DNA of 63,578 nt, the filler included, from Bigelowiella natans CCMP2755 (taxonomy: Eukaryota > Protista > Cercozoa), in the NCBI GenBank assembly GCA_000320545.1. It is 6 parts of 6 records of this genome, joined end to end, with 100 filler letters (N's around TTAATTAATTAA, not from the genome) between each part and the next. Parts side by side here need not be neighbours in the genome. Positions count along the whole stretch, not along the records: positions 1 to 25,830 come from ADNK01000637.1; positions 25,931 to 55,799 come from ADNK01003507.1; 4 more parts are not named here. One strand, given 5' to 3'. Numbering within the stretch: the stretch's first letter is position 1; the number at the start of each line of letters is the position of its first letter. Shown here piece after piece: positions 21,184 through 47,730 of the stretch. A program made the position numbers and the translations under genes. Under the pieces are notes generated by a model. The model did no database searches. It saw only the letters and a program-made list of their open reading frames with translations, and was not told where the DNA came from.

Positions 21184-22240
21184 ATGGCGACCAACAAAAA
21201 TGTAAAAATGCCTTGCGAAAATAATACGGCTGCTATGAAAGCCATGATTTCCGGGTATGCGAATTCCGAGTGGATGGAGATGAAAACAGGATCCAGAGAA
21301 CTGTACCAGATTGTCAACATGGTGGAGGAATTCACTTCAAAAAGGGAAAGATGTGGCAACATCTAAACAGCGAGAACGTGGAAAGACCCTCAGTTGTTCG
21401 ATGAAGTAATTCTCACAGAATTTTACTATTGGAACATCATTGGAGAGGGTGCATTTGGATCCGTGCACCTTTCTAATCTTTATGGCCAGCCCGTCGCAGT
21501 GAAACGCTTAAAAGTATTGGACGTCAAGAAGGTTCTCTACCGTGGTCCACCCCATTGCTATGTACTTCGATATTGCATTTGTTTCCTGCTGCTACTATCG
21601 CTACTGTATATGAGAATAGCAAGTTGACTTAATAAACAATAAGTATTACATATGTATTCAATCATCCACAGAAGGACGTAACGAACCAACTACATGTGAT
21701 GCTTACCCTCCGCCATCCGAATGTTGCAGAATACCTAGGGGTCGCTATCTTCCACTGAGTACTATCTATCATGTCAAAGTACATGGAATGGGACACGCTG
21801 TATGACTTAGTAGGGAAAAAACGAAAAAATGGCAAACAACTGCCCATGTAGAGGATCATCAAATTCCTAGAGGATATTGCTCTGGGGCTCAGTTGGCTTC
21901 ACCATCGGGGCAATATTCATTGAGATCTTAAACCTACCAATATCGTACCTAATGGAGGGAAAAGGAGATGTAAGATTTGTTCATAACAAATAGCTGTAAT
22001 GTCGCAGCAGCCTTTAAAGTATAGATATGATTATTGACACAGGAATCTTGGTTGTAGTTAGTCATTTTTATTATTTCTTATTTTCTTTGAGAACTTTTTG
22101 ATGGGTTAGTTATTACTGTACTCTTATTTCAATCTTAATCATAATTTATATCGATAATTTTGGACTGGCCCATGAAAACCTCGAAGCGCACGTCAGGCCA
22201 TCACGGGATGTGCGTTACGCGGCCCCCGAGGCATTCTAAA
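21184..22240 (+). pseudogene. Tyrosine-kinase-like (TKL) protein kinase pseudogene
   Basis: IGEGAFGSVH, VAVKRLK, LRHPNV, GLSWLHH..IH*DLKPTNI, IDNFGLA, RYAAPE; in-frame stops TAA 21364, TGA 21756, TAG 21849, TGA 21921 (replaces the Arg of HRD); DFG changed to NFG; C-lobe not traceable after APE. Confidence 0.85.
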
Positions 22241-22766
22241 CTTTGTCACATGCAGTTTTTCCATTCACAAGTCATGGATGACATGATGAAATGATCAATG
22301 TCAAATCAAGCTTGGCCTTGCACATGACGCATGCATCGCAGCGCATCACGAATGACAACATTGTGTGTGTCTGAGCTTTGTCCAGTTGTCGCGCTGACTC
22401 TGAACTGCACGTCGCCCTAGTCAGCGGCGTGTGCCAATGCTAGCAATGGGGACGTGCCGAGCGCGCATTTGCATGCTTTCAGCTGACGAGTTGAGAGACG
22501 TACGTGGCCTTCTAGCCTTGCCGACAGGATCAATCAGAGGAGGTTCCCGTGCCTGCTCTGACTTTGCATGGGCTAGTGGGGCCGTCGAGACAGCGATCCA
22601 CGATTTTGTCGTCCTGCACTGAATCGGGCATTGGGCTGCAAGCGTGCATCGTTGCTGCGTCTGCAAGAGGAGAGTCCTTGATGTGTGTGCAATGCACACA
22701 ATGTGCACACATGGCGGGGTGAATTTGTTTTCATGCATGTGATTGCTAGCAACCATCATCACATGC
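22240..22766. other. TpA-depleted island A
   Basis: Hand count: 6 TpA in ~527 bp, 5 in CTAG (22417, 22440, 22512, 22573, 22746) and 1 in GTAC; rich in TGCA/CATG; CpG retained. Confidence 0.85.
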
Positions 22767-23027
22767 GTACGTAGTAGAATTGAACACATCTGATCACGGG
22801 TTCAAGCTAGATGCACGTTTAGCAATTAACACAAATTCATGCGTTCTATGATCATGGACATAGATTTTGCAGTGCTTCTTTTTTTTGACGTAGGACATCA
22901 GATTTTATAAAATTCTTGTTCTACAGATTGGCTAGTATACTGTACAAGAAGGGGTCTGCCTATCGTTCCCTCGTAAAATTATGAAGTTATTCTCCGATTC
23001 GACAAAAAACCCTCATAGGAGATATTA

Positions 23028-23665
23028 TCACAAGGCGAGTTCCTCAATTTCGTCTAGGGTAACTCGCCTATCTCGACACTCCGAGCTACAGTAAGGTTCG
23101 TCACGATACATATAAACGGATCCCTTGAAAATTTTCTCTAAGTCCTCCTTACATTCTTGGCAAATTGTACTACAAACATCCCCGTCCGAAGTTCGCTTCC
23201 TTCGCCTTTTTTTCAATTTAGAGAGGGGGGCTTCGAATGCAGCCACGAGTTCCGCTAAACTGGTGGTACTAGAAGCTGGTGAGAGGGAGGCGGGCGTAGA
23301 GGAAGACGATGCATTTGAGATGTCTGAAGAATTTCGAGCGAGAGGTCTTTTCCGGGTGAAGTACATGGATAGCGGTGTATCCTGGGCGTGAACTTGATTT
23401 CTGATGAGGATACAAGTTATTGGTGCTAAATTTAGTCGATCATCTCTCAACGAACTAACAGAAAGCAACATGTACATATACATATTTTGTGTGTAAAATT
23501 CCTTCAGCAGATCGGCTAAAATAATATTCTTATATAGCGAAATAAAGAGACAACTTACAATGTCGGAAGATGCCCTGTGCTGGTGCCATTATTTATACTG
23601 GTCTTACTCTCGTCGAAGGGGAGAAGGTGATTACAACTCCTTCGCTTGCGTGTAGGGGTTGCCAT
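23028..23665 (-). CDS. FLZ (FCS-like zinc finger, DUF581-type) domain protein
   Basis: Last exon ends CQECKEDLEKIFKGSVYMYRDEPYCSSECRDRRVTLDE, matching the CxxC...(I/V)YMYR...(F/Y)CSxECR FLZ consensus; probable first exon MATPTRKRRSC from ATG at 23665. Confidence 0.72.
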
Positions 23666-24199
23666 TCTCTGTGAGATGCTGCTGTGTTGGATGAGTTGTA
23701 TCGTGACCCCGTTTGGTGGGAGGTATACAATGGCAAACCCTACTTTTAGTTCCAGCCCTATCTACGATCATATGTTAGAAAATCGATCGAAATCGAAGCC
23801 ATTTATGAATTAAATATGACACTTATATGTGTCGTATCTTAATAATGTCCAGAAATCAACAGACGAGATTTTAATGAATCGACTCGCACAATCTTAATGT
23901 CCCTACAGTGCCCCTTGTGAGTCACAGTGGCTTTCCCGGTACGACACGTCATGGCGCATTATTTCCCTCAAAGATGCAAGCCGTCTGTCGTGAAAGCTTT
24001 TCCCTGAATACCTAAGTTAATGCCATTGAAAATTTACTGTATCCTTAATCAGCGACATACTCACCTAAAACATTGCAAGGATACCGTGCCAGTTTGTTAA
24101 TTGAGGTTGGTCAGTTTTGGGTAGATTTACACATGATTCTTCATGCTCCAGACTCTTCACCTGCTTTAGTACCCTACGACTGCTTTTTAGTACCCTAGG

Positions 24200-25009
24200 A
24201 ACTGTCAAAAGTGATGAGTGTGGAAACTCGATGGCAACCTGCTCCCTGCAGCGTTTTCAACTTTGTTCACAGTTTCTGCTGCTTTGGCGTGCAAGGTTCG
24301 AGAGGAAAAGAGAGCCAATCAATCAATGTTTCAAAGAAATTCATTCATGTCGATTGAGCACGAGTCTTGAATCAAGGTGATGGGTTTGCTTTGGCCGCTT
24401 GAGGCACACCTTCCTTCCACCCACGTGTTGTGAGGCTGTCTGGGATTTTGGACGCACCACGCTGGCACGCACGCCACTCTTGTTGTCACAGGAGTCATTG
24501 CTTCGTCACGCAGCTTGAAGTGCAAAAGCTGACCATTTGTTGAGACTGCTGGCGACCACGCTGGCACACAGTCGCGCTGACCGCACCGCTCCAGCTGGCC
24601 AGCGTCGTTCGCAGCCGTCGGGCATGCATCGCACAAGCGAATCACGCGCTGCACGTGTGCCCTTTCTAGCTCTGATGAGCGCAATGTGTTGCTAGCATTG
24701 TGTGCATTGTGCATTGGATCAATGCATGCCACACGCGTGTGCGTGTGATGCAACACAATGAGTGCTCGGGCACACTTCATCCAATGATGGACACAGCAAC
24801 ATTGTGCACAACGTTGCGTCCGTTGTCAAGAAGATGCAGACATTGCATGCCATGCATGAAACAACGCATCACATGTGCACCATGAAAGCGCAGGCACGTG
24901 TGAATGGCCAGTGCGTCAGCAATTGCAAGTCGTCTAGTCGCACATGTGATGGTTAGCGCGGCTTCACTGCGTGTCCTTTCCACATCATGGAGCAAAAAAT
25001 TGTCATCGA
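24200..25009. other. TpA-depleted island B
   Basis: Hand count: 4 TpA in ~810 bp (CTAG at 24666, 24692, 24934; TTAG at 24953); none between 24200 and 24665. Confidence 0.9.
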
Positions 25010-25610: not shown

Positions 25611-25670
<60 letters not shown>

Positions 25671-25830: not shown

Positions 25831-25930
25831 NNNNNNNNNNNNNNNNNNNNNNNNNNNNNNNNNNNNNNNNNNNNTTAATTAATTAANNNNNNNNNNNNNN
25901 NNNNNNNNNNNNNNNNNNNNNNNNNNNNNN
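25831..25930. other. Assembly spacer N44-TTAATTAATTAA-N44 (six-frame stop linker)
   Basis: Identical 100-bp pattern occurs five times in the window; artificial. Confidence 0.97.
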
Positions 25931-26780: not shown

Positions 26781-27089
26781 AAGCGGGGAGGACGGTTTCG
26801 TGCAACATCATCACGAAGCTAGCGCATGCAGGCGTAGGATGTTCTTTGGAATTACTCCTCCATCTACTACACTCAGCGTTTGCGGCTAAAATCAGTAGCA
26901 TCATGCGCTGACGCTACAAAAACGTACCAGCACACACAATGCATTTCCAGATGTGTGTACACATGTCAGATGTAAGGACAACAAAATGCATTTATTTGTA
27001 TGTGCACGTGAAAGATGCTCTAGGCGATGCGCAAGGTCTAGTTGGTTTGTGTCAAAAGATTGATACGAGAGACTGTTTGCTTTACCATG

Positions 27090-28440
27090 CGAGCTAGCGA
27101 GCATAGCACAGCTGGCGCAGTTCACACCGTGCCATGTAGCATGTCACGAGCTCCATGCTCTCAGGCGCGCGCATGGATGGCAAGCTAGCAGCAAGTAGAG
27201 GCTAGGTTTGTAATCCTAGAATCGCATTCATGAATGATGCTCTTCAGGAACTCCATGGCTAGACAGCCCTTCTAGCCTTTAGGCCATCATGTAGCGTGCG
27301 CGCTGTCGAACACATGAAGTTGAATGCATCTGTTCTTTGCTACATGTAGTCCATTGCACACATGCTTTTACCCGCCACACGTGCACCAAATGAGCATGCA
27401 CATGTGCTGAATGACATGTGTTGTTGACAAGTGCACATGAGCAGGTCAACCACACATGTGTCATTGTGGAACATGTGTCACAACCCCATGCATGTGCGCT
27501 CCATGGCCCAAAGGGCCATGCAGAACGGCCGTGGTTTGCAATGATGCGTGCGTGATTGCGATGTGTGATGCATGCCATGCTGCAGCATGCTGGCATGAAT
27601 GGCACATGTAGGCGGCTAGCTAGGTGGACTGCATCTAGACTAGAGACATGCATGTCTAGCTACACTGGAGATGCACGAGTGGCGCGTTCTGGCATTGGCC
27701 TCCTAGCCTCTTTCTGCCAAGCAAGAACTGCGATGCATGCCCTAGCTAGCTAGCTAGCTGCGCAGTTTTGCAATCGACTGCTGTGATGAAGTGACGCACC
27801 ATCGATCTAGCTAGCTAGCTAGATGTCTCGATGACTCGAACTTCGAGGTCTAGAGGTTTAGATTTTTCCTGCGGCGTAGCTGCTTAGGTAGATCTAGAGA
27901 TTGTCTAGAGATCTAAAGATGCAACATCTAGAACATCTTCATGCTAGCATGCATGCAGTGTTCAGTGAATGCATGCTAGCATGCTAGCATGATGACAATG
28001 ATCCACAAGGCCATTTCGAGGAATGATAGCGAATGTGCTTTGGCTAGTTGGCACTGCTAGACTGCATGAGGTCTAGAGGTGCATCTTCGACCTAGCTAGC
28101 TAGCGAGGCGTGCTAGCGTGCTAGCGTCTAGGCGTGGGCAGGGAAGCCACTGCATGCTAGCATGCGAAAGAGATTGGTAGATGCAGTTTAAGAGATGGCT
28201 GTAGAGAGTGGACCATCTCTAGATCTGTAGACATGGCCACATGTCTGAATTTTGCACATGCCTGTGTCTAGATGTGTGCACACGTTGCAAACATCTAGAT
28301 GCTGTCTAGCTGTGCACAAAATGATCTCGATGCTGTCTAGCTGTGCATTGAATGATCTAGCAGCTAACAGATAACCTAGTAACGTTCATGTGGCTTGGGC
28401 ATGTGCGCCGATAGCAAATAGCCTCGATCGCAGCAGCAAC
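27090..28440. other. TpA-skewed island C (very CTAG/CATG/TGCA-rich)
   Basis: Dozens of CTAG; most other surviving TpA are in xTAG or CTAx contexts; TAT/ATA/TAA runs typical of flanking intergenic DNA are nearly absent. Confidence 0.75.
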
Positions 28441-28502
28441 ATTTTACGTGCGTAACGTAATCGAACGATGCGCGAACAAAACCAAAATATGCTTGATGTG
28501 TC

Positions 28503-31500
28503 TTATCTACGTGTTCTACTTTTCTGTGCAGGCACTCCACGCCAATATTGTAACGATGGAATTGATTTCTTCAGCATTTTGCTCAGTGGTGCAAGATAAG
28601 ATCTTTTCCCTATTGAACATTCTGGGACTGACAAATGTGCTCCAATTCCTACCTTTGATCCAGGACCTGCCTCAACATTTTTAAATTCCATGGAAAAATT
28701 ATCGAAGATGTGGCCTAAGAATGCACCTTCGATCACAGCCTCCTTACCGATTCTCAAAAAATCCCAATCTGTCACTGCGGTTGACGTTATGATAGCATCA
28801 AGTGATACTTCTGCGCCTAAAGTGCAGAGGAAAACATTTAGAAGACTGCTTCCATGCAGAACCTTAAAGATCGACTCAAATGCTTCCCGCTCATCTTGCA
28901 CATGCATTGAGCAAAGAAGTCGAGGGTCTCCAGGCTTCAGAATGATCTCTCGCATTCTTCCTACAAGAACCCACTTCCAAAATAGCATGTTGATGATGCG
29001 GCATCCGAAATAGATTGCGAAATACACTCCAAAGAGTGCGGTATGTGCCTCTCCACTGACATCAATTTTCCCTGATATCTCTAAACCAGCTTCAAATGCA
29101 GCTAGTAAACACAGGTAACGCGTCGCTAATCGAAGAACCCACAAAAACATGTCCATGGAGATGAACCACGTTTGAAAGAGCAACGTGTTTTTCTGTCTTT
29201 TCGTGATGTACTCATGTAGTTTCTCTTGGCTCGAGCGCGACACCTTAAACCTATTTGTTCCCAGCAGAGCGGTGCCTTCAGGCACTATCAGTGGCTTCGC
29301 AGAGTTCAGACCCTCTACCGAAGTGAGGAAGGAGATGTTGGAATTGTTCATCATGACAACATTCCCTGAAATGTGGCTCTGGACTCCTACCGTGCAGCCA
29401 TTGCCAATTCTGATCCGACTTCTGACATTCTGACTGCGACATCTAAATTCAGGCTCAATTGTACCGATGGAAACGAAAGAGTACTCTCCAATCTCGATAA
29501 GATGGGCATCTTCCGGATGAATGTTATAGGGCTGCGGCATGAGTGAGCCAACACCGATTGATAAACCCATTAGCCGTTGATAAATTAGATAATATGAATG
29601 CTTCGTGCCTAGCACAATAAATCCGAAGTATTTTAATGCAAAACGTTGAAGTAGAGCTAAATACCAACGCCTCCATTTTGTGAACAGTGTTTTACGGTAG
29701 GGGCCCTCTCGCACATGGCCAGCCAAAATCCACTTTGCGACGATTGAGTAGAGACCCAACATAACGAAGCTCCCAACAATTTGGAAAGTGTAGAAAATCA
29801 GGAAAAAATACCTTTGGTCGATCAGAGCCTCATTGTTAGCAGCCTGCTCGGGGTTGGTTCGAATCTCAAAGAGGTCCACGGCCCAAAATGAGATAGCTCC
29901 GACACTCGAAAAAATTGTTGCCAGCCATAGCTGCGCCACGAAAGTCAGCATCTTGCAGGTTTCGAGCTTCAGATCTATTTTACTTGGCTCGGGCTTGCAC
30001 ACCAACGCGTCGAATTTTGGCATTGCTACACCTTTGGGGTTTAATTCATCATCAGTCTTGTCACCGGTATCAGCTCGTTCTCCTCGGGTGTGGACAGGCG
30101 TGCTGGGCTGAAACTTTCTGTCGACGTGGCGAAGGCTTCTCCCATTGTTATTGGTATTTTTTGATGCTAAGAACTTCGGTACTGCCTCCTCTAGCTTTTT
30201 GTCACTTTTGGAAGAGATTTCCTTATTAAGATATAAGCTGTTGTTATTTGATTGGAGTTGAAGTCCCGCGTTTGCGCCATATTCACCAACCTCGCTTTGG
30301 ATTTCGTAATTAGAGGGGCTGCCGCCTCCTCCACGTGCAGACAGTTTTGCCGACTGAATAGTACCTGTGCTATGGCCAGATTCACGGTCTCGATCATAAT
30401 TGAATTCGTCAGTGGGAGTCTCAATGTTTTCCGCGAACGTTTTCTTATGCTCATCACTGGGGGACGCTGGTTTATATTGCCGGCTTCCTTTGTTGCCGCT
30501 TTTGAGCTGCCTCATTCGATTCCCTTGCCAAATAGTCCCTCTAGGGATCTTGGTATGGGGTCTGACGTATGTGTGAACCTTGATCCAACATCCATCCTCC
30601 AATATAGAGCCTTTGCCTATTACAGTGTTGCTGGAGATTGTGCACGATTTTCCTATTTTTATTGGGGCTAAAACAAGCCCATCATCCGCATCCATATCTC
30701 GCGCTAACAGGCGCCCAGATACACTGCTGTCAGCGCCAATACAGATTAGGTCGTGCTCTCGGAGAAATGTCTTCAAGTCAACCGCAATAGTGATCTTCGC
30801 TCCACAGAGAATATAGAAGAAACGAAACATAATAGTGTCGTAAATGGCAGCACCGACCAATAGCTCCCACATACTGAAAAGGGAGTCGATATACCACCAG
30901 CGCATCCAATACCAGCCGTGTAATGCATGCTCACCAGGTTTGTACCGTCCGATTATTAACCACTTCATCACAATTGTTATAATTGAGAAGGAGAGTGCCC
31001 AGATTGGAAATATAAATATTAGCAACAAGCCAGTGATCTGAGCTTCTGTAAACACATAAGGAATGGTTACTAAAGATAAACGGTATATCTACTCAAAGTC
31101 GAAATGAACTTTTCATCACGAAAAATTGTGGATTTGAATTCTTCATGGTAGTACTAACCGTCATAAATTCCGACAGCTATCGAGCTCCACGGTTCACTTC
31201 TTTTAATCGCTTCTTGCGAAAATGAGTAAGCTGGAATAGCGGCAATGGATCCAAGAAAGAAAATGGAGAGAACTCCAATGGTTTGAAGCACTATACGCAA
31301 CCAGGTAGACAAATTCTCTCTGTGTGCTAAGCTTGTGAATTTGCTTTCAAATTCTGTCTCATGAGAATCCTAATTACGGCTAGATGTGAACACAACGCGC
31401 ACAGAGAGTCACTTGAAATCATTTACCGAAGCGAGACGTTTTTGGCTATCCATGGGCTTCTTTTTTGGTCTATGATGGACTCGCAGTGGAATTGCGGTCA

Positions 31501-34500
31501 TCGAACGACGTCCAGTATCAGATAGGGCTAAAATAAAATGACGAAAGAGTGAACATAGAAGTATCCATGCTTTCTAGTCAAGTATGTATGAGACCTTGAA
31601 GTGAAAACGCTGGGTCAAAAGTTCCATTATATAGACTGTCTATCGTTTCGTCGGTAACCATGCAAGCATTCGGTGAATCAGGATCTCGAGTAAGTTTCTG
31701 TGTCGCCCTACTCCAGTAGTCCGATATACCATTCATTTCGGCATGCATCTCACAGAAACTGGATACGATCTGGGTGAGGTTATTTGGGGTCATTCGCAGC
31801 AGGATTAAGTCATTTTGGAACATTATCCCAAAACTATCTCTCAGTGCCCCCGCGATTTCAACTAATTGTATCGAATCCACGAGTGTGCCAAATTCGTCAT
31901 TCCTGGTCCATAATAAAACATCCTTTACCTCACCACATCTATAAATCAACTATTTAGAATCATTTAAGCTAAGTTCGTTTTACCCCATGTCCTTCCAATC
32001 GAATCCAGTCGATAAGCCTTTAGCAAGAGCACCTTCAAAATCTTCTTTGGTCATAACCGTTGCAAAGGATATCTGGAGGGAGTTCACTATTCTAACGTGT
32101 GGGTTCATCGAGGAGGAGCTCTTCTCTTCTACTGCCGGTTGCTTTGCACTATTGTTGTCGGTTGCCATCTTGAACAGAGGTTGCAGCAGGTTCGACTGAT
32201 ATAGTCTCCTAGCTTCGGTCCTGTTTTGTTGGGACAATTGAAGATGATCATACAGTTGGGTAGATTAAAGCGCACGTGTTACCTTCTCAATTTTCCACTG
32301 GAAGTTTTAGGGATCGTTCTCTCCTTTATCAAGACCACTTCAGATACATTCACTGATTCCGACCTTCTAACGGCAATCCTGATTTGGGAAAAACATTACG
32401 ATCGTTGATTCTTGAATTTTATGTGATCATACGCTATTTCTCTTGCAACGACTCCGTAATTTCGCTGCAACTTTCGCAGTTCTTTCTTGCCTCTTACCTG
32501 TCGCATAAAATAATGAATATTGGCGATGAATTACGGAAAATGACCTCATTTACAGTAAAGTACAGACCTCACTCAACACGACAAGCTTCTCCGTCCCGTC
32601 CCCCCCCTTCATAGAGAAAGCAATAGTACATCCTGGTCGAACGCCTTCAACCTACCAGGAGTCAATAGCTTTGAAAATGGGTTACTGTAATGTTCGGTCT
32701 TCAATGTGCACCTTGTCCACGGGAGCCTCGATGTCTTTTGGAGCTATATTTCTACCACGAATGATAATTACGTCCTTCATTCGAGAGACGAAGTAAAGGC
32801 GTGTTCCTAATTCCAAGTTTCTTGATAAGCATTCATGAGAAATACTGTATCAACACATAGCTTTCACGAACCTTCCATATAGCCAACATCGCCTGTCCGT
32901 AGCCACAGATCATTGGAACCTTTAAGTTCGGCACCAAATACCTCCTTCGATTTTTGTGGCTGATTCCAATATCCCTTTCAAGGTGAAAGATGTTAGTGTA
33001 TATATCATTTGTATTATTGACCGTAATTACCAATGCAACAGACTCTGAATTCAGCCATATCTCGCCCTCTTGCCCGTCCTCTACTTGCGAAGAGGTTTCT
33101 GGATCTACAATGCTACACTTCACACCTGCATGAATTCAAATGCGCATCAGACATGCATGTAACATCATCTTTATTCCGTACCTAATGATCGTGAGAGATC
33201 TCCAAACACGGCGCAGCACATCTGCTTTGGATTGACCTGGATGTTTCACAATGTAAGAAAAAATGGATTTCATTATAATAACTGACCTTTGAATAAGCCC
33301 TCTCTGGATCATTGAAGTCGAAACTAACCCCAACGACATGCTCTGCCATCCCGTAGCATGCATGGATCTGGTGAGTTTGTGCAACAGTTCCAGTTTATAT
33401 CAGACTTTCACATCTTGATGCAGAAAAGAAATCTAGTCGTGCGGAGTCACCGTGTTCCTTTTCATCCCATACTTGCCCATCAGATCCTCGAAACCATCAA
33501 AACTTTCCTTCAGATTTTCCTCACCTCCCGCTCCGATGGAGCGGACATGACTAAGATTGAATCCCTTTGGAACTAGAACGGTGGACCACTTGTGCACCAA
33601 AAGAGTGTACGCAAAGTTAGGAGCCTAAAGCATAGGTTCAATCAATCAATCGGTATTGTCCAGTTTCGAAAATTATTGGTCAATGAAGTTTAGCCTTTCT
33701 TATCATTTACTTGACTTAGATTATGTAAATTGTAAATACTGCAATCTATTGTGCATTACAAATGAAACGTTGCAGTTATATCTCCACATGGAGTGCCTGA
33801 ATTAAAATAAAGAGGATTCGGCAATGAGCCCCCATTATTATATTTCGGTTTAATCCTTACATCCACATCGGAGGACACTTCAGAAACGCGATAGGACTCA
33901 TAAAATGACCTAGTTAAGAAATAAGTTAGACCATCTCAGTTCATGCTCATACAACATGCAACATCCCACCCTGTCCTCCAGCGTATAAAGATAATAGGTA
34001 ATTCGCAATGAGTCCTAGATCGTGGTACTGGGGCAACCAGCAGATAGTTCTATGAGGTCTGAAGACGAAGGAAAACCTTATGACAGTGAAATAAAGTTTT
34101 CATTACAGAAAGATACCTGAAGCTTATTTGCTCTACGTCTGGGTCACGATTCTCATTTTGTGAATTTATATGAAGTAATTGCAGATTGTGAAGTAGATTC
34201 GTGTAGGAGATCATGACACCCTAAAGTAGAAATGTGATGAGTTCAGGTGATGAATTCTGTACTATGAACGTGCCTTTGGATCTCCAGTTGAGCCACTTGT
34301 GTATTGTAAGAAAGCAAGGTCAGGGTGGGTCATGTTTACTCTTGATTTCCTGGAGAATCTTTTCCCGACGAATTTCACATCTGATCATTTCAAAAATGTC
34401 GAACGATTTTTTATCATTACAAATATGCGCCATACCTTTGTCGAGACTATCTGTATTCACAAATGGAATGTTTGGCCACGTTGTGCCAACTTTGAGCTTC

Positions 34501-34979
34501 AGCTTCCAAATGTGTCTTGTGAAGTCCTTGTGGGAGAGTACATGCCGCGCTTGACAGTCATCAATGATGAAGTTCATTTTTCTTATACTGTACTCAAGGC
34601 GTGCATGAGAAGGTGGATAAATTGGAACTGCGACAACCCCTGCAATGAGGCAGCCCAAAAAAGCTTGAATGAAATCTAGGCTAAATAAATAGCACATCAC
34701 AACTCGATCGCCCGGTTTAACACCGAGATTGTTTCGCAGATAATCTGCGACTGTATTAGCATGCTCCCAAACTTCAAGATAGGAAAGTTTCTTTTCTATG
34801 TTGCCCTTTTCTCCTATCCACGCATAGAGAAGGCGATTTGGGTTTTTGTTTTTCTGCTTCATGAAATGATGAAGTAACGAATTCCAGGAGGACTTTCTCT
34901 TCGAATCCGAGAGCATTGATGATCGCTCGCTATCATGTGGAGAAAATGATGAAACTCTACCCTCGATGGCCTCGTGCAT
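28503..34979 (-). CDS. Membrane-bound NRPS-like enzyme: FAAL-type adenylation domain + carrier (ACP/PCP) domain + Pls/PosA-type C-terminus (TM pairs alternating with hexapeptide beta-helix repeats)
   Basis: Spliced A-domain motifs: GVKPGDRV...AFLGCLIAGVVAVPIYPP, LAFLQYTSGSTGDPK|GVMISYTNL, CWLPQYHDLGLI, APNFAY, CYGMAE, GEIWLNSESVAL|GYW, WLRTGDVGY, SRMKDVIIIRGRNIAPKDIE, IPKTSSGKLR. Carrier motif VDSIQLVEIAGALR (~31830-31880). The 850-aa last exon has three KW(L/I/V)(I/L)xG TM units each followed by (L/C/M)G(A/L)x(I/V) and IG-type hexapeptide repeats. Confidence 0.9.
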
Positions 34980-35595
34980 CGGTATCACTTCTAGAATTTC
35001 GAATTTGCACAATTGTTCTGTTGTTACCTCCTGGTCGTATACACGATTTTAGGTAGGGTCTATGTAAGCTAGTGCTGCCTGAAAGGGCGGCCTCCACTAC
35101 AAGGAACCCAAGGAACGTTTGGAGTGTATTCTTACTAATATTACCACCCTTTGAACGACCTTCAATGTGCTGTGCTGTCAATTTTCCATGCCTGGCTGCA
35201 TTCTTGCTTCCACCTTGAGCGATGAGGACGTTATCCTGAGTAAGGCTGGGGGGACTTGACCATAAGAGACTGTTGTAAATGTTGTATTGGGGATGCCTTT
35301 TCGAGCTGCGACATGCTACATCGAACAATTTCGCCGCGAAACGAGTGCACGTGGTTGTACATGTACCTGGAAGCAAAAAGCAAAGGCTGGAGCGGGCATT
35401 GAGCAAGTTTTTTCCGTTTTTCCAGCACTCGTTTGGCGCATGCGACTGTGATATTCCTCGCTGATGTGGCCGAAACCGCCTACCATGATGCAATGACCGT
35501 GACTTTTGACCAAATGACTCAGTACCTCTCAACAAACGGAACGAGCGATTGCAAAACAGTGCATCAAAGACGTCCAACAGACCACTTGAGCTTAC

Positions 35596-36500
35596 GATTG
35601 CAGCAACAATTGCATGTCGCGGTCTGAAATGTTCAGTGCGTCTTGCAGCGCGACTTCATTGCAGCGTGATTTCTCGAGATTTGTTCGCCTTGGTGGTCTC
35701 CTGAGGGTGTCCAACGGATGATGGTGTCCAACTTTGACAGCAGTCTAGCAGTGCTTGTGCCTTGTGCACATTTTGTTGGAATGTCAAAATGGGCATGAAT
35801 CTTGAATGTTGGACTTTTGATCGAAGGGTGTGGAGATCAAGGCCAGTGGCTAGGTGGAACGTCCAATGAACCCCAGCTGTGTGAGGTTCTTTTCTCGTTC
35901 GTTCAGAGAACGCAACCTCTTCTCGCATTGCACCCCATGACAGTCTTGCTGCTTGGGGAGGAGGCAATTTTTAGCAAACTGAACTGAGCACTTCTAGACT
36001 TCTTCTGCAAATTCCTTTCAGTGCTGGGGTGCGCCAATGAACAAAGACACTCATCAAAGAACGAAGACACTGCACTCGTTCGTTCGTTTTGGCACTCTGC
36101 AACAGGTGTTCTTTGTGCACCAGCTTGGCGGTCTAGCGGTGGAGACATTTCACTCGTTCGTTCGTCTTGGCACTCTGCAACAGGTGTTCTTTCTGCGTGC
36201 ACCAGCTTGGCGGTCTAGCGGTGGACCAGTGCGTGTGTGCATGCCAGTGTGGAGACACTTCACTCGTTCGATTGTTAATGCGTGCACCCATCTAGCCATC
36301 ATCACTCTTGCGCACAGCACAGAACAACAAAGAAAGACTGCCACACATTGGAACGAAGACACCCAGTTGGCTCTGGAGCCAGACGTCATGCTAGCATGCG
36401 CTAGTGCTAGTAGTGTGTGAGCAGTCGCTTGGTCGTCATCACCAGATCAAACAGGTCTAGTGGTGCATTTGCCACACGCTGGCCGGCCAGCTAGGTGTTG
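35596..36500. other. TpA-depleted island D (contains a 78-bp tandem repeat)
   Basis: Hand count: 14 TpA in ~905 bp, 11 in CTAG plus TTAG, GTAG, TTAA; TA-rich sequence resumes from ~36610. Confidence 0.88.
36073..36270. repeat. ~78-bp tandem direct repeat (2 copies plus partial third)
   Basis: cactcgttcgttcg..ttggcactctgcaacaggtgttcttt..gtgcaccagcttggcggtctagcggtgga at 36073 and 36151; ggagacac/ttcactcgttcg again at ~36251. Confidence 0.9.
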
Positions 36501-36970
36501 ACTATGCAACGATGATCTGTCGCACTGTCGTCTGCATCGTGTCAAGCACACATGTGTGTGTTCACTAAACCACAAGTTGTCATGTCTAATTAGACACACT
36601 GCACTGCTAGCTAGCTAGACTACGTGTAGTACACCGTGATCTCCACCGTGTCACCGTGTGTGAAGTACACATTTGTATGTACACATACACAAATATTTTG
36701 GCACATATATAGATATTGTCACATAAGATAGACATATAGTGGATACCATACGTTGTACGTTCTATGTAATGTGTAAAGCACGTGCAGTGTCTAAGTACAT
36801 CATCTAGACATATAAATGTCAGGTCCAATTCTTGCATTGGCTAACCGTTTCAGAATTTACTATAAATAAGAACTAAATTTCCAGGCAAAATTGGCTTGAG
36901 ATCTCCATTAAATCTAGAGTAGCCTTCGCTCTAATGTCTGTTCGCAAAGAAAGGCGATGCAATTTTCATC

Positions 36971-37900: not shown

Positions 37901-37975
37901 ATGCAGATAGATGGGGGATCATCGAGGACATGCATGATGGGTGGTGAAGAGGGAACGAAATTCTTGTTAAGAAAA

Positions 37976-38945: not shown

Positions 38946-38985
<40 letters not shown>

Positions 38986-39181: not shown

Positions 39182-39199
39182 AGACGGCCAAGCAGTTAT

Positions 39200-39303
39200 T
39201 CATTCACCACATGCTAGCATGAAATGATGATATCTAGATGTACCTACCAGATCTAGCAGATACCTAGCTAGCTAGATATGCTAACCGATCATCTAGATCA
39301 TTA

Positions 39304-39346
<43 letters not shown>

Positions 39347-39795
39347 TCAAGTTCATGCTGTATTAGATCACATTTTTGCAGTGCATGCTAGCGTGGCAGC
39401 TGCTAGCCTGATGAGATATGTACACATGTGGATGTACCTAGCTAGCTAGTGACACATGTCCAGACACAGCAGGTTTAGAGCTAGGATTGCAATGCATGCA
39501 CATGGTCTAGTGGTAGACAGGCTGAAGCAGCTAACGACAAGCAGAGCCGTTAATGTGTAACAGAGCCGAGCCACATCACTAGCTAGCTTGATCGCCACGT
39601 CAGCTCAAGAGATTGGATGTACATCGCGTAGATCTAGACACCATGTACGTGAGACAGCTCAGCGCAATCTCATGTCTAGATGTGTCCCTGTGCGCCACTA
39701 TTTTTTTCATTAGCAGCTCGGCGATCACAGTGATTGTCATAGCAATCTAGCATTGTGCCATGTGCGTTCATGTACGTGTTGTCGATTGCTGCTGT

Positions 39796-39826
<31 letters not shown>

Positions 39827-39930
39827 GCGCGCATCACATCACATCACACTTGTCCATCACATCGTGATCATAGGCCTACATGGCATGCTAGCATGTGGCG
39901 TGCCTGGCCGGATGTGTGTTTCAGTACACA
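39200..39930. other. Weaker CTAG/CATG-rich, partly TpA-depleted intergenic tract (island E)
   Basis: Many CTAG, CATG and TGCA words, but also intact (AT)n and several unprotected TpA. Confidence 0.4.
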
Positions 39931-39934
39931 TATG

Positions 39935-40294: not shown

Positions 40295-40327
<33 letters not shown>

Positions 40328-43300
40328 TTCTCTCTCTCTCTCTCTCTTGCTCTTTCCCTCAGTGTGGGTGTGAGTCGTCATCATTCACCTGCTCGGACTC
40401 TGAGAATGCGTTCTCCTTGTCGTTCTTCTGAGCTGTCTTAAGGGTTTAAGTTTGCTTGTGTGGCTGGCGATTGGCTTTCTGCAAATTTAATCGCAGATTC
40501 AAAGACAGCTCTTCACCAATGCAAAAAAATTGTTCCTCTGCTTTTTAATTTTTGGGAAAATAAAAGAATGAGAATTTATTTTACGTTCGTGCTGTACGCC
40601 GAGTGGGAGACTTCATTCTTCTCCTATGTTGTAAATGAGAAATCCTCATAGCGAAGATGTTATGGCATCCTGTAAATTTAACTACCTAGTTTTTAGGCGA
40701 GGAATCATGCGAGGGGTTGGAATTTTCGTTTGTTTTCCATTCTTTTCGCTGAAAGCGTACGTCAATATCTCATTATGACCTCATAATTAACGTCTAAAAT
40801 CGATTTGTGCAGTCGTACGAATCTGTAGTGTCCCCCCCTGCAGAGGCCGCGCTCTTGCTCTTAAAAGATGTGGGGGCACGGAGACGACTTGGTGCCTGCG
40901 ATGTGCATGAACGTGGAGAACATCTTTGGCGAACGAACGAGTTTCCAGATGTTCTCACAATATTATTACCTTGAGTCGGCGCGGTCGCCGCCTGCTCGCG
41001 CTAACTTTCCCCTCAGGTCTCTTTACTTTCGGCTCAGAATGTATCATAGCCTTCGACGTGGTGCTGTCCACAGTGTGTCCTACGTAGTGTTTGTAGGTTT
41101 AACGCGATTTCTATCAGCCCTCCTAATGCATGCATGAGAGGTTTACACCTTCACTAGTTCCGTCTTTCGTGCCTTCCTCTGTATCAACCAACATTTTCCC
41201 GGATATATCCGCATCACCGAACCGACTCCAGTCGGCCTCCCGCGGTGTTGATGTCACGTCTGGCGCCTGCTTCGGCGGCTTCTTTTTCAAGGAGAGCTTG
41301 GCATTTATGGTTGCTTGTATCTGACCAGAAATCCAGTCGTTCCAGTAATGCCATGGAATGTTCAATTTCTTTGATTGTACGAACATTGAGGTGGGGTCAA
41401 ATTGGTCAAACCCGAGATCCGCCTCATCTAGTTTTCCCTGCTCCTGGAATCGTCGCAAAGCCGCAGTAACTGAAAGGCAAAAGAATTGAAGCTTCTGGTC
41501 ATCTTCGGCTGAGATAGATGTTCCTTTTTCATCTCCTGATGACGCCCCAGGTAAGGACTTTAAGCGCTCCTCTTCCTCACGCCGTTGTTTAACTTCTGCC
41601 AGCTTCTGGGCTTCCTCCTCTATTTTTTTCTTTTCTTCTTCTTCCCTTTTTCGTGACGCTTCTTCCTCAACCTGTTTTCTTTCTTTCTCCATTCGCAGTT
41701 TTTCTGCTTTCAGAGCTTTTAACTGCTCATCTTTTGCCCTCATCCTCTCTACAACTTCCCGTTCAATCATTTCCTTCAAACGACGTTGTTTCTCTATCTC
41801 TGCTTCTTTGGCTTTCTTCTCGCCTTCTTCCTTTTTGCGAAGATAGCCAGGTTGGATAAGCTCCAGTTTGCGCTCATCACTCATGGATTCCAGCACACCA
41901 TTTTCACCAAATAGGATGATATTATCGCCCGCCTTCCCGGCAAGACGTGCTTTATTAATTTCAAATTCGATAGTTGGAAATGGAGGGACGTCAGGAAGAA
42001 TTTTCTTCACTACGGATAGATTACAGGCTGCTGCAATAGCATTGATAACCTTTCGAGGATTCCTCAAGAGGGACAAATCGTCGATCTCGAACATAGCACA
42101 TTCTGGAATACCCAATATCTTCAGAGTCTTGATTGCAGCGAGAATATTTTCTCTTGCGAGCACAGAGCCATCCGTTGCGTTCGTATGAATTTTAATTTCA
42201 GACTTTTTGTCGAGCTTGTTACACATCTGACAAATGGCGACTCCATTTGGTAGCCCATCGAACAAATCTGGACGTACTTCGACCCCTAGGTCCACAAACC
42301 ACGTTGCAGCTTGTTTTGCTACAATCGAGACCACCTCAGAAGACGCAAGATATTTTATCTGTATGGTTACAAGCATCATAGCATGAGATAATGAAGCGTC
42401 ATACGAGTATTTATACATTCTAAATTATAGGATAGTTACATGTGTCAAACAGATTGGTGCGACCTTATTAGCAGCCAGCGACTCTTGAATATCGCGTTTG
42501 GCCTGAATTCTACTTTGAAGGGTCTCAATCAAATTGCTGCGATATCTCATTTGTCGAAAGTGTCTTTGCATGAATAACACTGATTGGCGGATTCGTTTGA
42601 CGCGTTGTACTGCGAGGGCCGTACGAAGAATTGAAGTAAGATGTAAAATCTGCAATCTTTGTCGGCATCGGCGCAGAGTTTTAAACATCGTTTTAGATAT
42701 CACCACCTGTATCCTCACGTAGCGTGCCCATTTTCGTTCCGCACGCATCCGACGCAACCGAACCAGCCACCGGGAGTATGCTTTCATAAACGCAGACAAG
42801 CGTAGTATACGTTTGCGGAGAAGGTGTTTCTTAATCCTATCCACAAGATCAGCAGGAACCTTCCAGTTTGGCCCTCCCTTACGCATAAGATCTTCTAGAA
42901 GTTCCTCTTGCTGTCCCTTAAAGAAGACCTTCGTGAGCCCCATCTCGAAATTAGAGAGACTTTGGTTGAAGCTTTTCAGTATAGCTTCACAAAAGTCTCG
43001 TTGATTTACAGTCTCCATCTTTTTCCGGTCATTGGAGAATACTGAAGGACCGTACCGAGCGAAAAGGGCTTTATACTGGATCCTTGTCGGATATCCACAC
43101 TTGATGATCTTTATTGCTTCAATTAAGCCGCCGCATCTGAGCTGGTCACCGACGTATTTATCTTTGAAAACTCCGGCCATCTTATCCAGATTAGGCTTGA
43201 TGCATCTCACAAAGTACGGCTTTGTGGTGTTCAAACTCTTCATTAGATTCTTCAGTTGTTCGCTAAAAACATACCCAAGTGTACGCTTCTTGCTCTTTTT

Positions 43301-46300
43301 GCCCTTTAAATTCACCAACAGGTTCTGCACTATCGGACTAGTAGATGTGCAGAATACTTCTACGCTGTCCTCATGCACACGATCAGCATTTTTCACCAAG
43401 AACTCTTTCGCATCGTAGCAAACGGGCATAGCGTAATGAAGTATCTGGAATCCATTGATGAGCTGCCTCTGTCCCCCTCTCTTCCGTTGTGCTTTTGGAT
43501 TGGTATTCATTCGTTTGAGATTTTTATGCTTCCCATGTTCTTTGAAAATTAATTGGGTGAAGATCTTATCATCAGCCTTTGGCATCTGGCACGCTGTGTC
43601 TAACAATGAAAAAATTCCTCTAGGCCTTTTATTAATGAGATCAAGGGTAGGCTTGTTGTCCGGAAGTTCGATCGGGGTCCAGAAAATACCTTCACGCTGA
43701 TACTCAGCTTGTTCGGAGAGCATAATGTTGTAATTGAAATAACGCTGCAAAGTTTCGTTGGTGAAATTAATGCAAAACTGTTCAAAGCTGTTGTATTCAA
43801 AGCATTCGAATCCAAAGACGTCAAGGATGCCGATCCATTTAAGCGCAGAGTTTAAACCCGTATCTAATTTCGTCTCCGAGTCCTTTTTCTCACTTTTCGA
43901 CTCCTCGTTATTGGATGCCCGTGTCTTCCTTCTGTTGCGGTTCCTCAGAGCAGAGTGACCGGCGTTTGACTTACGTATCGAAGACGCTGATCCATCTAAT
44001 TTCGCATTCATATTCTTCATTATATCACTCAAGTGTTTGCCCGATTTTTCGGCCCTTAAGATAATACACCACATGCACACGGAAGGAGGGAGGCAGAGGG
44101 AGGAGGAGGGGGGAGTCAGCTCCAGCAATGGAGGAACATAAGTTCGAATACCTCTTTGCTTCCAATTTTGATACGTACAGTTCATAGTTTATCTTCTTTA
44201 CGACCCTAGAAGAAATCATGCGATCTTAATGGCCATACAATGGGTTGATCAAAATTAATCGTGAACCAGTCGAATAAGCTTCCGTATATAGCCTTCGCTG
44301 TCGAGTCTCTATTGCTTACTGCCTGTTCGACGCTATACTCTTTCCAGATGACACTCCGAGCAACCTTTGAATCAACACAGACTTAATGTTTATTATTCAC
44401 TCGGTACGCAAGAATAACACGCAATGATTATTAAAAAAAATGGTACAATATATCACCCTCATTGACTGTTTCGTGAGTCGGCGTATCAGGTCGTCTTCAT
44501 CTATTTCGAGTAGTCTTGCTGCCCATTTGAGATTAAACCTTCATGTTGCTTTCAATTACGGAGAAGCACGCGAGGATAATATGTAAGATTCTTACATGGA
44601 ATCTTCACCGATCTTGCAAGAGTCGCTCGTCTTTGAATCGTCAGCAATAAACTCGATGTTACCGAGATGAAGCACCGCTGATACAACTGAAAGCATCTTC
44701 GAAATTGTCACCTCATCAAACCCTGTAACAGTGCTTACGTGAGAAATATTTCTTTCATGACAAAAATTTGTCCCACAGTGGAAAATGCGACCTAATAAAT
44801 CTAAGGATTCCATTAATTCTGTGAAACGGTATTCGTCAGATATTCCCGGAATTTCGATGCAATCAATTTGGTTGAGGTAGGCAAAGTCCTCGGCGGACTC
44901 AATCCCAAGTTCATTCAAGCTATTTTCATCCAGGCCTGCACACATCTGATGTCGTAACGGATACATATTTGTCAACATAAAATTATACATCAAAGAAATC
45001 AAGCTGTAAGTTAATACTTGATAGAAAATGTGATAGTTTCTCTCTCCGGGTGCCTAATTTACAAGGTCAAGCTCATTGATTGCGGCATCACTGCTGAGGT
45101 GGATCTTACTTGAAACACAACTCGTGACTTTTCCAGAAGGTAAGTCTCACAAGCAGAGCCCACAATTCTCCCTCCTGGTCGAATTTATTGGGGATTAGTC
45201 ATCATATATTCAATATAAGTGATTCAAAACCTTCTACATCCTTTGCCTTTGTGTCTGGTTCGTTGAATAGCAGTTTGGTAAATTTTCCGAAACGAGACGA
45301 GTTATTGTTGAGTAACGTCTAGTTTATACGAGTCATTTAAAAATATGACTACAATATTACCGAATTCGTACCTTGGCATTACCGAAACTCTCAAGAATTG
45401 GATTTGCTGAAAGAATCTGACATTTACAATGATAAGGTGAAAGGATTGTGGATAAGTCATTCAAATAATTCATTTTAACGACGCAACCTGTTGCTCAATT
45501 TTAGCTGAGGTAAGAGCTGCTTCAGAGAAGGAGGATTTAGAAGTATTACTTTTGAACAATCCAATCGAAGTTGTGTAAGCTAGATGACGCATCAAATACC
45601 TTTTAAACCATCGCATGGAACATGGAACACATTATTGAAGTGGAATATTGCTTGAGGTAAAACATTGAATGAAGTGTTTTGAATTACTTTGCATTTTCTG
45701 TTTTCCCCGCACCAGATTCTCCACAAACGACCATTGACTGGTTTAGTCCAGTCCTATAATATATTCCATATTTACACGGTAGTTAGTGCTGAGCACATAC
45801 TCCAAATTTTTAGGTTCTTCACCAAAGTAGCTGCCGATAAGCATCTTCTGCAATATTGAACACATGGGGAAGCCCTTTTTCATATTTGGCCTTATTTGCG
45901 TATTTATCAATGAAGCCTAAGATTACGTCTTCTATGAATAGAAAACCAGGGTAACAGGGGCAGTTTATTTAACTGTTTGAGTAGCAGTTGAGCTGTTTGT
46001 ATGGATTGACCGCCACGACCACCGAGGATATCCCTTCAAATAGAACAAAGTAAAATAGTTGTCAAAATCGTGATTTGTCAGGTTCATCTATTTTGTCAAT
46101 GGACCTGTGTATATCAAGTCCTTTGCGTAGCGAAGTTTCAGATTGCGTACTACATTCGGCTCGTCGAGATGAATAAGTGAAGAGAGGTCCTGGTGCATTG
46201 TGTTGATGATTTACTGTTACATGATGACCAACATATACTTTTTCATGACAGTCTGGAACACTGCTACAGGCTACAGGCATTGTCAATGTGAATGTGTGAA

Positions 46301-46546
46301 TAGTGAATAGCACGTAGCACGGAGTGTCATTACTCAATCTTTCACAAAAGATAAGTCGATTCGTTCATGATCGCCTCGCGGAAAAATGGGGGAGGCGCGC
46401 TGATGGTATCAATGCCCACTATGATTTTACCGGCACTCCGTCTTTGAGGGCAGACATTCCTCCTTCGGAAACGACCGCCTGCGGCACAAAGTTTGCCTGA
46501 TTGCAACAATTCAGCAAACCAAAGAATCGCCGAGCTTGGATGCCAT
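39935..46546 (-). CDS. Unconventional myosin: motor domain, IQ-like neck, calponin-homology domain, coiled coil and low-complexity tail
   Basis: DLSSLIHLDEPNVVRNLKLRY, VAVNPYK, PHVFNIAEDAY, NQSMVVCGESGAGKTE, NPILESFGNAK|TLLNNNSSRFGKF, YLLEKSRVV, ERNYHIFYQ, IGILDVFGFE, NSFEQFCINFTNETLQ, PYFVRCIKPN, GLTKVFFK; CH domain in ORF 41123-42418. The core 41123-46189 is solid; extreme 5' and 3' exons are uncertain. Confidence 0.92.
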
Positions 46547-46652
46547 TTCGTACATGCGACAGGATTCAATCCCCATAATTTCCAAAAATGATATTCGGCT
46601 TGCAGCCCGCCTCTGCGACAACTCACATAATAAACTGCACTTTTCACTCGTA

Positions 46653-47730
46653 GAACTGCTTCCAAATGAAGCGTCCCTTTTCACCCGCAACAATCTGGGG
46701 CGATTTCGATTGTTTGTCGTGATTGGAAAATGTCAGGTCTTGTGGTGATCCAGTGTCATCTCGTCTGATCTTGAATCATTTCTCACAACAATGACCTCTG
46801 TTTTGTGCACGATCGAGAAGTCCTGAAGTTGGCGAAGATCAGGCACTTTGGAAATGCAGTTTTTCATCGTTGTTCTCATTGTTCTCATTGTTCACAAAAG
46901 ACAATGAAACTAGGAATGGAGGAATGGCCAAAATGCCATTCTTGATTCACTGCGTTTCGTTTCACTGCAAACGTCTTGTCACACTTTGGAAACGTGGTTC
47001 ATCATCGTTGTTCTCATTGTTCTCATTGTTCGTCGTGAATTCGTGAACACGTGAATCCACCAAGTGTCCCACGTTTGAAATGGCACATCGCCCGCAAGGA
47101 GCTTGCAGCTGGCTAGCTGGAGCGAAGGAGCTGCACAGGTTCCAGCACGTCACGAAAGGCTGCCCGATCTTGATACGCATGGATGCCCAGACGGCGCGGT
47201 GTTTCGCGCTCGGGATGGACAAGGCTGGAAGGCCAGAAGGTGCAGCTCTGGCTAGCTGGAGCTGCCTCGTGCAAGCACAAGAGCGCTGCTCGTTCGGGAT
47301 GTCCGCTCGCACACGCACGCAGGTGTGCAATCTGGCAGTGTGGAAAGGGGGAGAAGCATGCGAACGTCGACCCTTTCTCGCGGCCGGCCGAACGCAGTTG
47401 GCTGCATGCGTGGTGTCGCAATTTGGGGAAAAGTGTCTGGTGTTTTTCCCGAATTTTGGGCCACTGTGGCTGCGTGGTTTGACGCAACTGGGGTGCTGTG
47501 CCAGTGTGTGCCCGTTGCGCTGATGCATGCATGTTGGTGCACAAATGGCCAGATGGCACAGTGTGTGAACGACTCGCAAGCAAGCGGCAAGCCTTCTCTG
47601 TTGCTCGTGTGCGCATGCACAAATCATCAATGTCATTTCTTCAACAGGGTGTCAGTTTTGTGGACTCAAATCTGCAATTGCATGGCACTGGTGCAGTTGT
47701 GTTGCAAGCGCTGCGCAATGCGACTGCAGG
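46653..47730. other. TpA-depleted island F
   Basis: Hand count: 4 TpA in ~1078 bp (CTAG at 46910, 47113, 47252; ATAC at 47173). Causes many overlapping, nearly Tyr-free, Cys/His-rich spurious ORFs on both strands. Confidence 0.92.
46844..47031. repeat. ~50-bp imperfect direct repeat within island F
   Basis: cactttggaaa-tgca-gtttttcatcgttgttctcattgttctcattgttc (46844) vs cactttggaaa-cgtg-gttcatcatcgttgttctcattgttctcattgttc (46982). Confidence 0.9.

What the first reader, a model, noticed from the sequence alone, without database searches (positions are those of the whole stretch)
22240..47730. Candidate undescribed genome-defence/hypermutation system: islands in which TpA has been erased (mirror image of RIP)
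SEEN: five to six sharply bounded intergenic tracts (A 22240-22766, B 24200-25009, C ~27090-28440, D 35596-36500, F 46653-47730, weaker E ~39200-39930) have roughly balanced base composition but almost no TpA. Hand count for A+B+D+F is 28 TpA in ~3.3 kb, versus ~200 expected at 1/16; only 6 lie outside CTAG. TG, CA, TGCA and CATG are abundant and CpG is retained. Neighbouring intergenic DNA (18200-19000, 36610-36900) is TA-rich. ESTABLISHED: fungal RIP and 5mC deamination consume C (CpA/CpG) and RIP creates TpA, the opposite direction; TadA-derived DNA adenine deaminases prefer an A preceded by T. INFERENCE: a regionally targeted process converts TA to TG on either strand (read as TA>TG or TA>CA), for example via a DNA adenine deaminase or a mutagenic adenine modification aimed at repeats or silenced DNA. 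I know of no described natural pathway with this signature, but cannot search the literature here.
Basis: partly seen in the sequence, partly recalled or inferred. Interest (0 to 1): 0.92.

Follow-up and report, generated by a model that had tools for sequence, protein, structure and literature searches.

The report
Fossil TpA hypermutation footprints sparing CTAG
Short stretches between genes of the marine alga Bigelowiella natans have lost nearly every TA pair except those inside CTAG, likely old footprints of a TA-to-TG/CA mutator already reported for this species in a 2026 preprint; only the CTAG exception and the small size of the targets look new.

Summary
CpA+TpG rise by about the amount lost and CpG does not fall. 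C and E are not TpA-poor overall; they are CTAG-rich and partly erased. The window is Bigelowiella natans (myosin 100% identical to a JGI Bigna1 model). So the system is not undescribed; these islands are best read as its saturated fossil footprints (inferred from signature, not from polarised copies). Not found in that preprint's main text: (1) TpA survives by context, CTAG fully, half-sites partly, others about 2%; (2) the targets are 0.5-1.3 kb spacers between expressed host genes, with no viral homology found and below the preprint's 3 kb cluster rule. No ongoing mutation was seen in two DNA runs. Enzyme, targeting and the cause of the CTAG exception are untested.

The parts
22240..22766 (.). 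Island A, saturated TpA-erased tract
   Evidence: 6 TpA (5 CTAG) vs 29.9 expected; rho CA+TG 1.78; HMM segment 22242-22764
24200..25009 (.). Island B, saturated TpA-erased tract
   Evidence: 4 TpA (3 CTAG) vs 46.4 expected; the 1-kb window 24001-25000 passes the preprint's thresholds
27090..28440 (.). Island C, partly erased and CTAG-rich, beyond the 3' end of the minus-strand AMP-binding/hexapeptide gene
   Evidence: 44 CTAG, 21 half-sites, 5 other TpA; 13 of the 44 in tandem (CTAG)n runs; RNA-type contig reaches 28192
35596..36562 (.). Island D, saturated tract between two minus-strand transcribed genes; holds a local ~80-bp duplication (36065-36225, third partial copy to 36276)
   Evidence: 14 TpA (11 CTAG) vs 53.2 in 35596-36500; HMM to 36562; duplication; RNA-type contigs end at 35791 and begin at 36490
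39200..39930 (.). Tract E, CTAG-rich but at most weakly erased; includes an intact (TA)n run
   Evidence: rho TpA 1.18; non-CTAG TpA not significantly low; 20 CTAG, 12 half, 15 other after masking simple repeats
46653..47730 (.). Island F, saturated tract; depletion fades out to about 47973, into the 3' end of the orphan ORF
   Evidence: 4 TpA (3 CTAG) vs 61.0; HMM 46657-47973
46844..47031 (.). Multi-copy repeat inside F (two in-window copies 138 bp apart; many more elsewhere in the runs)
   Evidence: summed contig depth 1146 and 2091 at 46924 against 8.4 and 17.3 nearby, 17-20 contigs with another letter (summed depth is not a copy number)
28503..35791 (-). Flanking host gene (AMP-binding and hexapeptide-repeat domains), spliced; context only
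   Evidence: Pfam; CT..AC introns in RNA-type contigs
41148..44053 (-). Flanking host myosin gene (part), identifies the organism; context only
   Evidence: 100% identity to record jgi/Bigna1/45663; Pfam Myosin_head and CH
47839..50169 (-). Intronless 776-aa orphan ORF next to F; origin unknown; context only
   Evidence: no Pfam family; only itself found; no usable Atlas hit

Best explanation
These tracts of the Bigelowiella natans genome lack TpA outside CTAG and carry a matching surplus of CpA/TpG, likely because the species' reported TpA hypermutator once worked on them to near completion, probably by deaminating the A of TpA on either strand. Shown here: the depletion, the CA/TG gain, the retained CpG, the graded survival by context (CTAG about 100%, half-sites 3-67%, others 2-40% of flank density). 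Shown in the preprint for other loci of this genome: de novo TpA>TpG/CpA mutation at about 1000 times background. Inferred: (1) that the same process made these islands (0.85); (2) A-to-inosine deamination by an ADAT2/3-type enzyme, fixed as G at replication (about 0.5; the preprint's hypothesis, untested); (3) targeting of silent chromatin domains, whether decayed foreign/repeat DNA or plain spacers (about 0.6); (4) CTAG survives because a C before and a G after TpA each slow the reaction, so the palindrome is the worst substrate on both strands (about 0.5). A, B, D, F are exhausted, C and E partial, and none appears active now.
For: Organism: myosin 100% identical to jgi/Bigna1/45663. [quoted passage not shown] A, B, D, F as whole tracts meet its thresholds (rho TpA <=0.43, CA+TG >=1.52). 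Budget: TpA is 48-82/kb below two backgrounds and CA+TG 66-71/kb above them, CpG not lower. Saturating TA>TG/CA on six hand-picked TA-rich flanks (3,075 bp) with CTAG spared gives CTAG 6.5/kb (observed 6.6), CAA 29.7 (27.7), CAC 28.8 (31.5), GCA 36.1 (37.8), CAG 20.2 (21.1). CTAG is 22 of 28 residual TpA vs 99 of 3,037 in the rest of the window (P 6e-27); half-sites outlast other contexts in C+E (33:20 vs 987:1951, P 3e-5). Islands are not copies of each other. Two reciprocal TG/CA differences between copies in F (1 among 6 listed of 15 differences; 1 among 5 differences). Control: 28 of 1,202 500-bp windows here meet the signature vs one stretch in 1 of 79 unrelated myosin loci (13,642 windows), with no CTAG.
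Against: No TA-bearing homologous copy was seen, so direction is not polarised; a TG/CA swap could also come from a CpG ancestor; the D duplicate pair shows 3 mismatches, none of this type. No new mutations in two DNA runs over C and D: 0 seen, 3.4 expected at non-CTAG sites at the intensity the preprint reports for its NCLDV insert. No viral or transposon homology: 6 of the 11 island ORFs were scanned, none reaches a Pfam cut-off. Only 2 isolated 1-kb windows of 64 pass the preprint's thresholds, so no cluster by its rule. The simulation is post hoc and overshoots CAT (34.9 vs 24.7/kb), TCA (29.3 vs 21.5) and ACA (31.7 vs 25.5) and undershoots GC (0.48 vs 0.52); the unprotected model fits the NCAN cells best but predicts no CTAG. 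CTAG in C and E is about 5 times flank density, more than protection alone can give. A nearby kinase pseudogene keeps its TpA (window 21001-22000, rho 0.80), so decay alone does not attract the process. The 79 control loci are largely coding or transcript-like, an imperfect control.
Confidence: 0.85

Rival explanations
1. For the CTAG exception only: CTAG is not protected but regenerated by a second, C-to-T process in the same domains (CCAG or CTGG back to CTAG), helped by slippage of (CTAG)n. Both products of editing CTAG would be returned to CTAG, which holds for no other context.
For: CC/GG is depleted in islands (0.52-0.64) and in TA-rich flanks (0.58); CTAG is about 5 times flank density in C and E and 17/kb in the unerased tract 58150-58700; B. 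natans is reported to encode DNMT6 (PMC9998398, passages).
Against: In A+B+D+F CTAG density equals flank density (ratio 1.02), which plain protection explains; 21 of 64 CTAG in C+E lie in tandem runs; CT/AG is not raised in A+B+D+F (0.90); no methylation data for these loci were seen.
Confidence: 0.35
2. For the chemistry only: the lesion is on T, not A (an oxidised or modified thymine that pairs with G) or an error-prone polymerase; TpA is palindromic, so A>G and T>C cannot be told apart from sequence.
For: Symmetry argument (inference). One-sided context models fit worse than symmetric ones (CCA/CAG observed 0.95; predicted 1.6-1.7 or 0.4-0.6 vs 0.8-1.0). Fungal Tad2-Tad3 editing favours A/G at +1 and edits UAG (PMC11156358, passages), unlike sparing of TAG contexts here. 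Mispairing of oxidised thymines is recalled, from no call.
Against: Strict 5'-T preference is shared by ADAT/TadA-type enzymes, and the preprint finds an ADAT2 homologue with the motif linked to DNA activity.
Confidence: 0.25
3. The islands are relics of intrinsically TA-poor repeats, or copies amplified from one already erased element, and no local mutator acted here.
For: F holds a multi-copy repeat; four distinct 30-letter loose ends from RNA-type contigs at that repeat carry no TpA.
Against: No homology among the six tracts beyond short palindromes; most of C and D lie near single-copy contig depth; depletion crosses the repeat's edges in F and fades into a neighbouring ORF; partial stages C and E show graded context survival.
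Confidence: 0.08
4. Ordinary CpG decay plus the universal mild TpA avoidance, or an assembly artefact.
For: TG/CA excess is the usual mark of 5mC decay (own knowledge); CCG/CGG is low (0.23-0.33); the DNA runs that confirm the letters may be the window's source.
Against: CpG per kb is not lower than background; coding DNA here has rho TpA 0.60, not 0.07-0.26; RNA-type contigs of two studies match parts of C and D.
Confidence: 0.03

Closest known systems
TpA hypermutation of integrated viral DNA in Bigelowiella natans (Mettrop et al., bioRxiv 10.64898/2026.01.13.699255; whole main text read, supplements not seen)
   Same: Same species, same target (TpA), same products (TpG/CpA), regional; A, B, D, F meet its per-window thresholds as whole tracts.
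   Different: Its active targets are 186 kb and 25 kb viral inserts still holding TpA (rho 0.45 for the NCLDV); these are 0.5-1.3 kb saturated spacers between host genes, under its 3-window cluster rule, with no foreign homology found and no current mutation seen. Its main text does not mention CTAG or flanking context.
Repeat-induced point mutation (RIP) of fungi
   Same: Regional, dinucleotide-specific transition hypermutation read as genome defence (as the preprint compares it).
   Different: RIP is C>T and creates TpA; here TpA is consumed. RIP needs duplicated sequence; C and D look mostly single-copy.
ADAT/TadA-type adenosine deamination (fungal Tad2-Tad3 mRNA editing, PMC11156358 passages; amphioxus and trypanosome ADAT2 as cited by the preprint)
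   Same: A>G outcome with T/U at -1.
   Different: Fungal editing is on RNA and favours A/G at +1; here the change is heritable in DNA and TAG/CTA contexts are relatively spared. No enzyme was tested.
AID/APOBEC hypermutation
   Same: Context-specific deamination-type hypermutation aimed at invading sequence (analogy drawn by the preprint).
   Different: C>T rather than A>G.

Membership tests
B. natans TpA hypermutation (Mettrop et al. 2026) | Sequence is from B. natans | tested here: met
   100% identity to jgi/Bigna1/45663
B. natans TpA hypermutation (Mettrop et al. 2026) | rho TpA <=0.43 with rho CpA+TpG >=1.52 | tested here: met
   A, B, D, F meet both as whole tracts; C and E fail on TpA
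B. natans TpA hypermutation (Mettrop et al. 2026) | Cluster of 3 or more consecutive 1-kb windows (the preprint's reporting rule, not a property of the process) | tested here: not met
   2 isolated windows of 64 pass, counted from the window's first base
B. natans TpA hypermutation (Mettrop et al. 2026) | Polarised or de novo TA>TG/CA substitutions | tested here: inconclusive
   0 differences in two DNA runs over C and D, 3.4 expected at non-CTAG sites if active; two unpolarised TG/CA swaps in F copies
B. natans TpA hypermutation (Mettrop et al. 2026) | Target of viral or other foreign origin | tested here: inconclusive
   6 of 11 island ORFs scanned, no Pfam hit at cut-off; F holds a multi-copy repeat; neighbouring orphan ORF has no relatives found
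B. natans TpA hypermutation (Mettrop et al. 2026) | Caused by an ADAT2-type DNA deaminase | not testable with these tools
Fungal RIP | C>T at CpA with gain of TpA | tested here: not met
   TpA lost, CpA gained
5mC/CpG decay | Loss of CpG matching the gain of TpG/CpA | tested here: not met
   CpG 54.5/kb vs 37.7-45.4/kb in background

The most novel reading that the evidence does not exclude
The B. natans TpA mutator is not only antiviral: it is a silent-chromatin-coupled DNA A-to-G editor that also sweeps sub-kilobase spacers between active host genes to completion, and it has a CTAG blind spot set by the whole palindrome (two-sided context penalty, a protective mark or bound protein, or regeneration by a paired C-to-T process), which would be the first handle on the enzyme's specificity.
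Probability: 0.35. Interest if true: 0.7.

Novelty: already known. Interest (0 to 1): 0.33.

Why it matters
The process itself, a natural heritable A-to-G hypermutator acting like RIP in reverse, is surprising, but it is already in a preprint for this same genome, so the finding mostly confirms it. Two additions would matter if they hold. The CTAG exception predicts a four-base context rule that can be tested at once on the preprint's 231 mutations and used to screen candidate enzymes. Saturated sub-kilobase islands among host genes suggest that the fossil footprint is finer-grained than 3 kb clusters and may not be limited to recognisable foreign DNA. A practical point: loss of TAA and TAG (TAA 0.6/kb vs 22.9/kb) opens long spurious ORFs, which may account for some unannotated low-TpA gene models.

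Tried and rejected
In-window BLAST of the six tracts: no shared element, only short palindromes and two local duplications. One-sided context models (only a C at -2, or only a G at +1, protects): fit worse than symmetric ones with both ancestor sets (both strands counted, so not a formal test). Orphan ORF beside F: no relative by three routes, so no evidence on its origin. Metagenome scans: no relative of the AMP-binding gene's long exon (66 pattern matches, none confirmed); myosin gave 79 distant loci (best 52% identity), none usable as an orthologous locus, used only as a composition control. No RNA holder was listed on record; lack of RNA-type contig cover over the cores of C and D is not used as evidence of silence. 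Earlier scan notes: none. Paper searches; CTAG with Bigelowiella gave one unrelated listing. The 2015 provirophage paper is not held, so I could not check whether this scaffold carries listed viral inserts. ChlorV methylation motifs do not include CTAG (PMC13196603, passages). A WUA motif that I recalled for fungal editing was not found in the review checked and is not used. The GC-rich stretch 53612-54844 was rejected as an island (no CA/TG gain).
Full report
Observation. Each tract is far below expectation (Poisson P 1e-7 to 2e-21; 0 of 2000 shuffles as low). An HMM over the window returns these four tracts and one GC-rich coding stretch that lacks the CA/TG gain. C and E are different: total TpA is normal (rho 0.84 and 1.18) because they are rich in CTAG; non-CTAG TpA is strongly low in C and not significantly low in E. 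Contigs of two DNA runs reproduce C, D and the left end of F letter for letter, with the tool's caveat that these runs may be the window's source; RNA-type contigs from two studies match the ends of C and D. A, B and most of F were not checked against runs.

Organism and setting. A myosin in the window is 100% identical to a record named jgi/Bigna1/45663, so this is the chlorarachniophyte Bigelowiella natans; the model name suggests scaffold 135 (naming convention recalled). Five 100-bp gap spacers cut the window; A and B lie in the first piece, C-F in the second. C-F sit between host genes: a spliced AMP-binding/hexapeptide gene, a short spliced gene, a Bud32-like kinase (name recalled from its motifs, no call), the myosin, and an intronless 776-aa orphan. 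The tracts are not copies of one another. Most of C and D lie near single-copy depth; F contains a repeat with many copies elsewhere. Six of the 11 long ORFs that overlap islands were scanned and none reaches a Pfam cut-off.

What made them. Relative to two backgrounds, A+B+D+F have lost 48-82 TpA per kb and gained 66-71 CpA+TpG per kb, while CpG is not lower. That fits TA>TG/CA and not CpG decay. Running that single rule to saturation on six TA-rich stretches that I picked (3,075 bp), with CTAG spared, reproduces CTAG, CAA, CAC, CAG and GCA densities within about 10% but overshoots CAT, TCA and ACA and undershoots GC. In 79 unrelated myosin loci (720 kb) the signature appears once, without CTAG, against four segments here; those loci are mostly coding, so the control is loose. 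Direct polarisation failed: I saw two TG/CA swaps between copies in F but no copy with TA, and none in the D duplicate.

Prior art. bioRxiv 10.64898/2026.01.13.699255 (whole main text read; supplements closed) reports a mutation-accumulation experiment in B. natans. Two integrated viral regions mutate about 1000 times faster than the rest; 230 of their 231 mutations are A>G or T>C, all at TpA, and only in some lines. It scans the genome in 1-kb windows for low TpA with high CpA+TpG, finds 124 clusters of three or more windows, compares the process with RIP, and names an ADAT2 homologue (Bn78255) as candidate. By its thresholds A, B, D and F qualify as tracts, but only 2 isolated 1-kb windows of 64 pass, so this window would hold no cluster if its windows start where mine do. 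Whether its Tables S2 and S10 treat these loci or flanking context I could not see.

What this window adds. Survival of TpA depends on both neighbours. Against flank density, A+B+D+F keep 102% of CTAG, 3% of half-sites (CTAn or nTAG) and 2% of other contexts; C keeps 58% of half-sites and 7% of others; E 67% and 40%. The preprint's main text has no mention of CTAG or context, and a search for CTAG with Bigelowiella gave one unrelated paper. Models in which only one neighbour protects predict a skewed CCA/CAG ratio (1.6-1.7 or 0.4-0.6); the observed 0.95 fits a symmetric rule. I favour a two-sided penalty that makes the palindrome the worst substrate on both strands. But CTAG is about 5 times flank density in C and E, and CC/GG is low in islands and flanks alike, so regeneration of CTAG by a C>T process plus slippage is a live rival.

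Activity and targeting. Two DNA runs show no difference from the window over 27000-37921; at the intensity reported for the NCLDV insert, about 3.4 hits were expected at non-CTAG sites of C and D and about 58 over the whole stretch. The region as a whole is therefore not mutating at that rate, and the islands read as fossils; the evidence for C and D alone is weak. What marked these spacers is unknown. B. natans has one H3K9me3/H3K27me3 state on transposons and repressed genes (10.1101/2025.03.17.643675, passages), a plausible guide (inference). A decayed kinase gene 300 bp from A keeps its TpA, so decay alone is not enough.

Verdict. Real feature, well-supported reading, already described process. 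Interest comes from the CTAG rule, which is testable at once, and from the small host-flanked targets. Interest 0.33; novelty: already known.

Noticed in passing
window 25831-25930, 55800-55899, 57413-57512, 59290-59389, 62327-62426: Five identical 100-bp gap spacers (44 N, a 12-base all-frame stop linker, 44 N): assembly joins, so adjacency across them is not guaranteed.
   Followed up: yes
window 47839-50169 (-): Intronless 776-aa ORF in an intron-rich genome, no Pfam family and no relative found; its 3' end is TpA-poor, continuous with F. Candidate foreign or mobile gene.
   Followed up: partly
window 21381-21960 (+): Decayed protein-kinase gene with three in-frame stops in its last exon, one at the HRD arginine; TpA not depleted.
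   Followed up: partly
window 23031-23588 (-): ORF between A and B with a zf-FLZ match (E 3.5e-7, above cut-off).
   Followed up: no
islands A-D, F: Loss of TAA/TAG opens 11 of the window's 69 stop-to-stop frames of 120 aa or more; such frames may inflate counts of unannotated low-TpA genes.
   Followed up: partly
window 58150-58700: CTAG-rich (17/kb) tract with normal TpA: CTAG enrichment without erasure.
   Followed up: partly
window 18200-19000, 36501-36900, 58150-58700 and the islands: CC/GG is depleted (0.52-0.64) and GpC enriched (1.3-1.7) in 3' flanks and islands alike, suggesting a separate, unexplained process.
   Followed up: partly
islands A, B, D, F: CpG is slightly higher per kb than background (54.5 vs 37.7-45.4); single TA>TG/CA steps do not create CpG. 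Weak secondary editing at CpA would; untested.
   Followed up: no
window 12640-12790 and 13120-13270: A duplicated ~130-bp stretch seen by eye; local duplication or assembly error.
   Followed up: no
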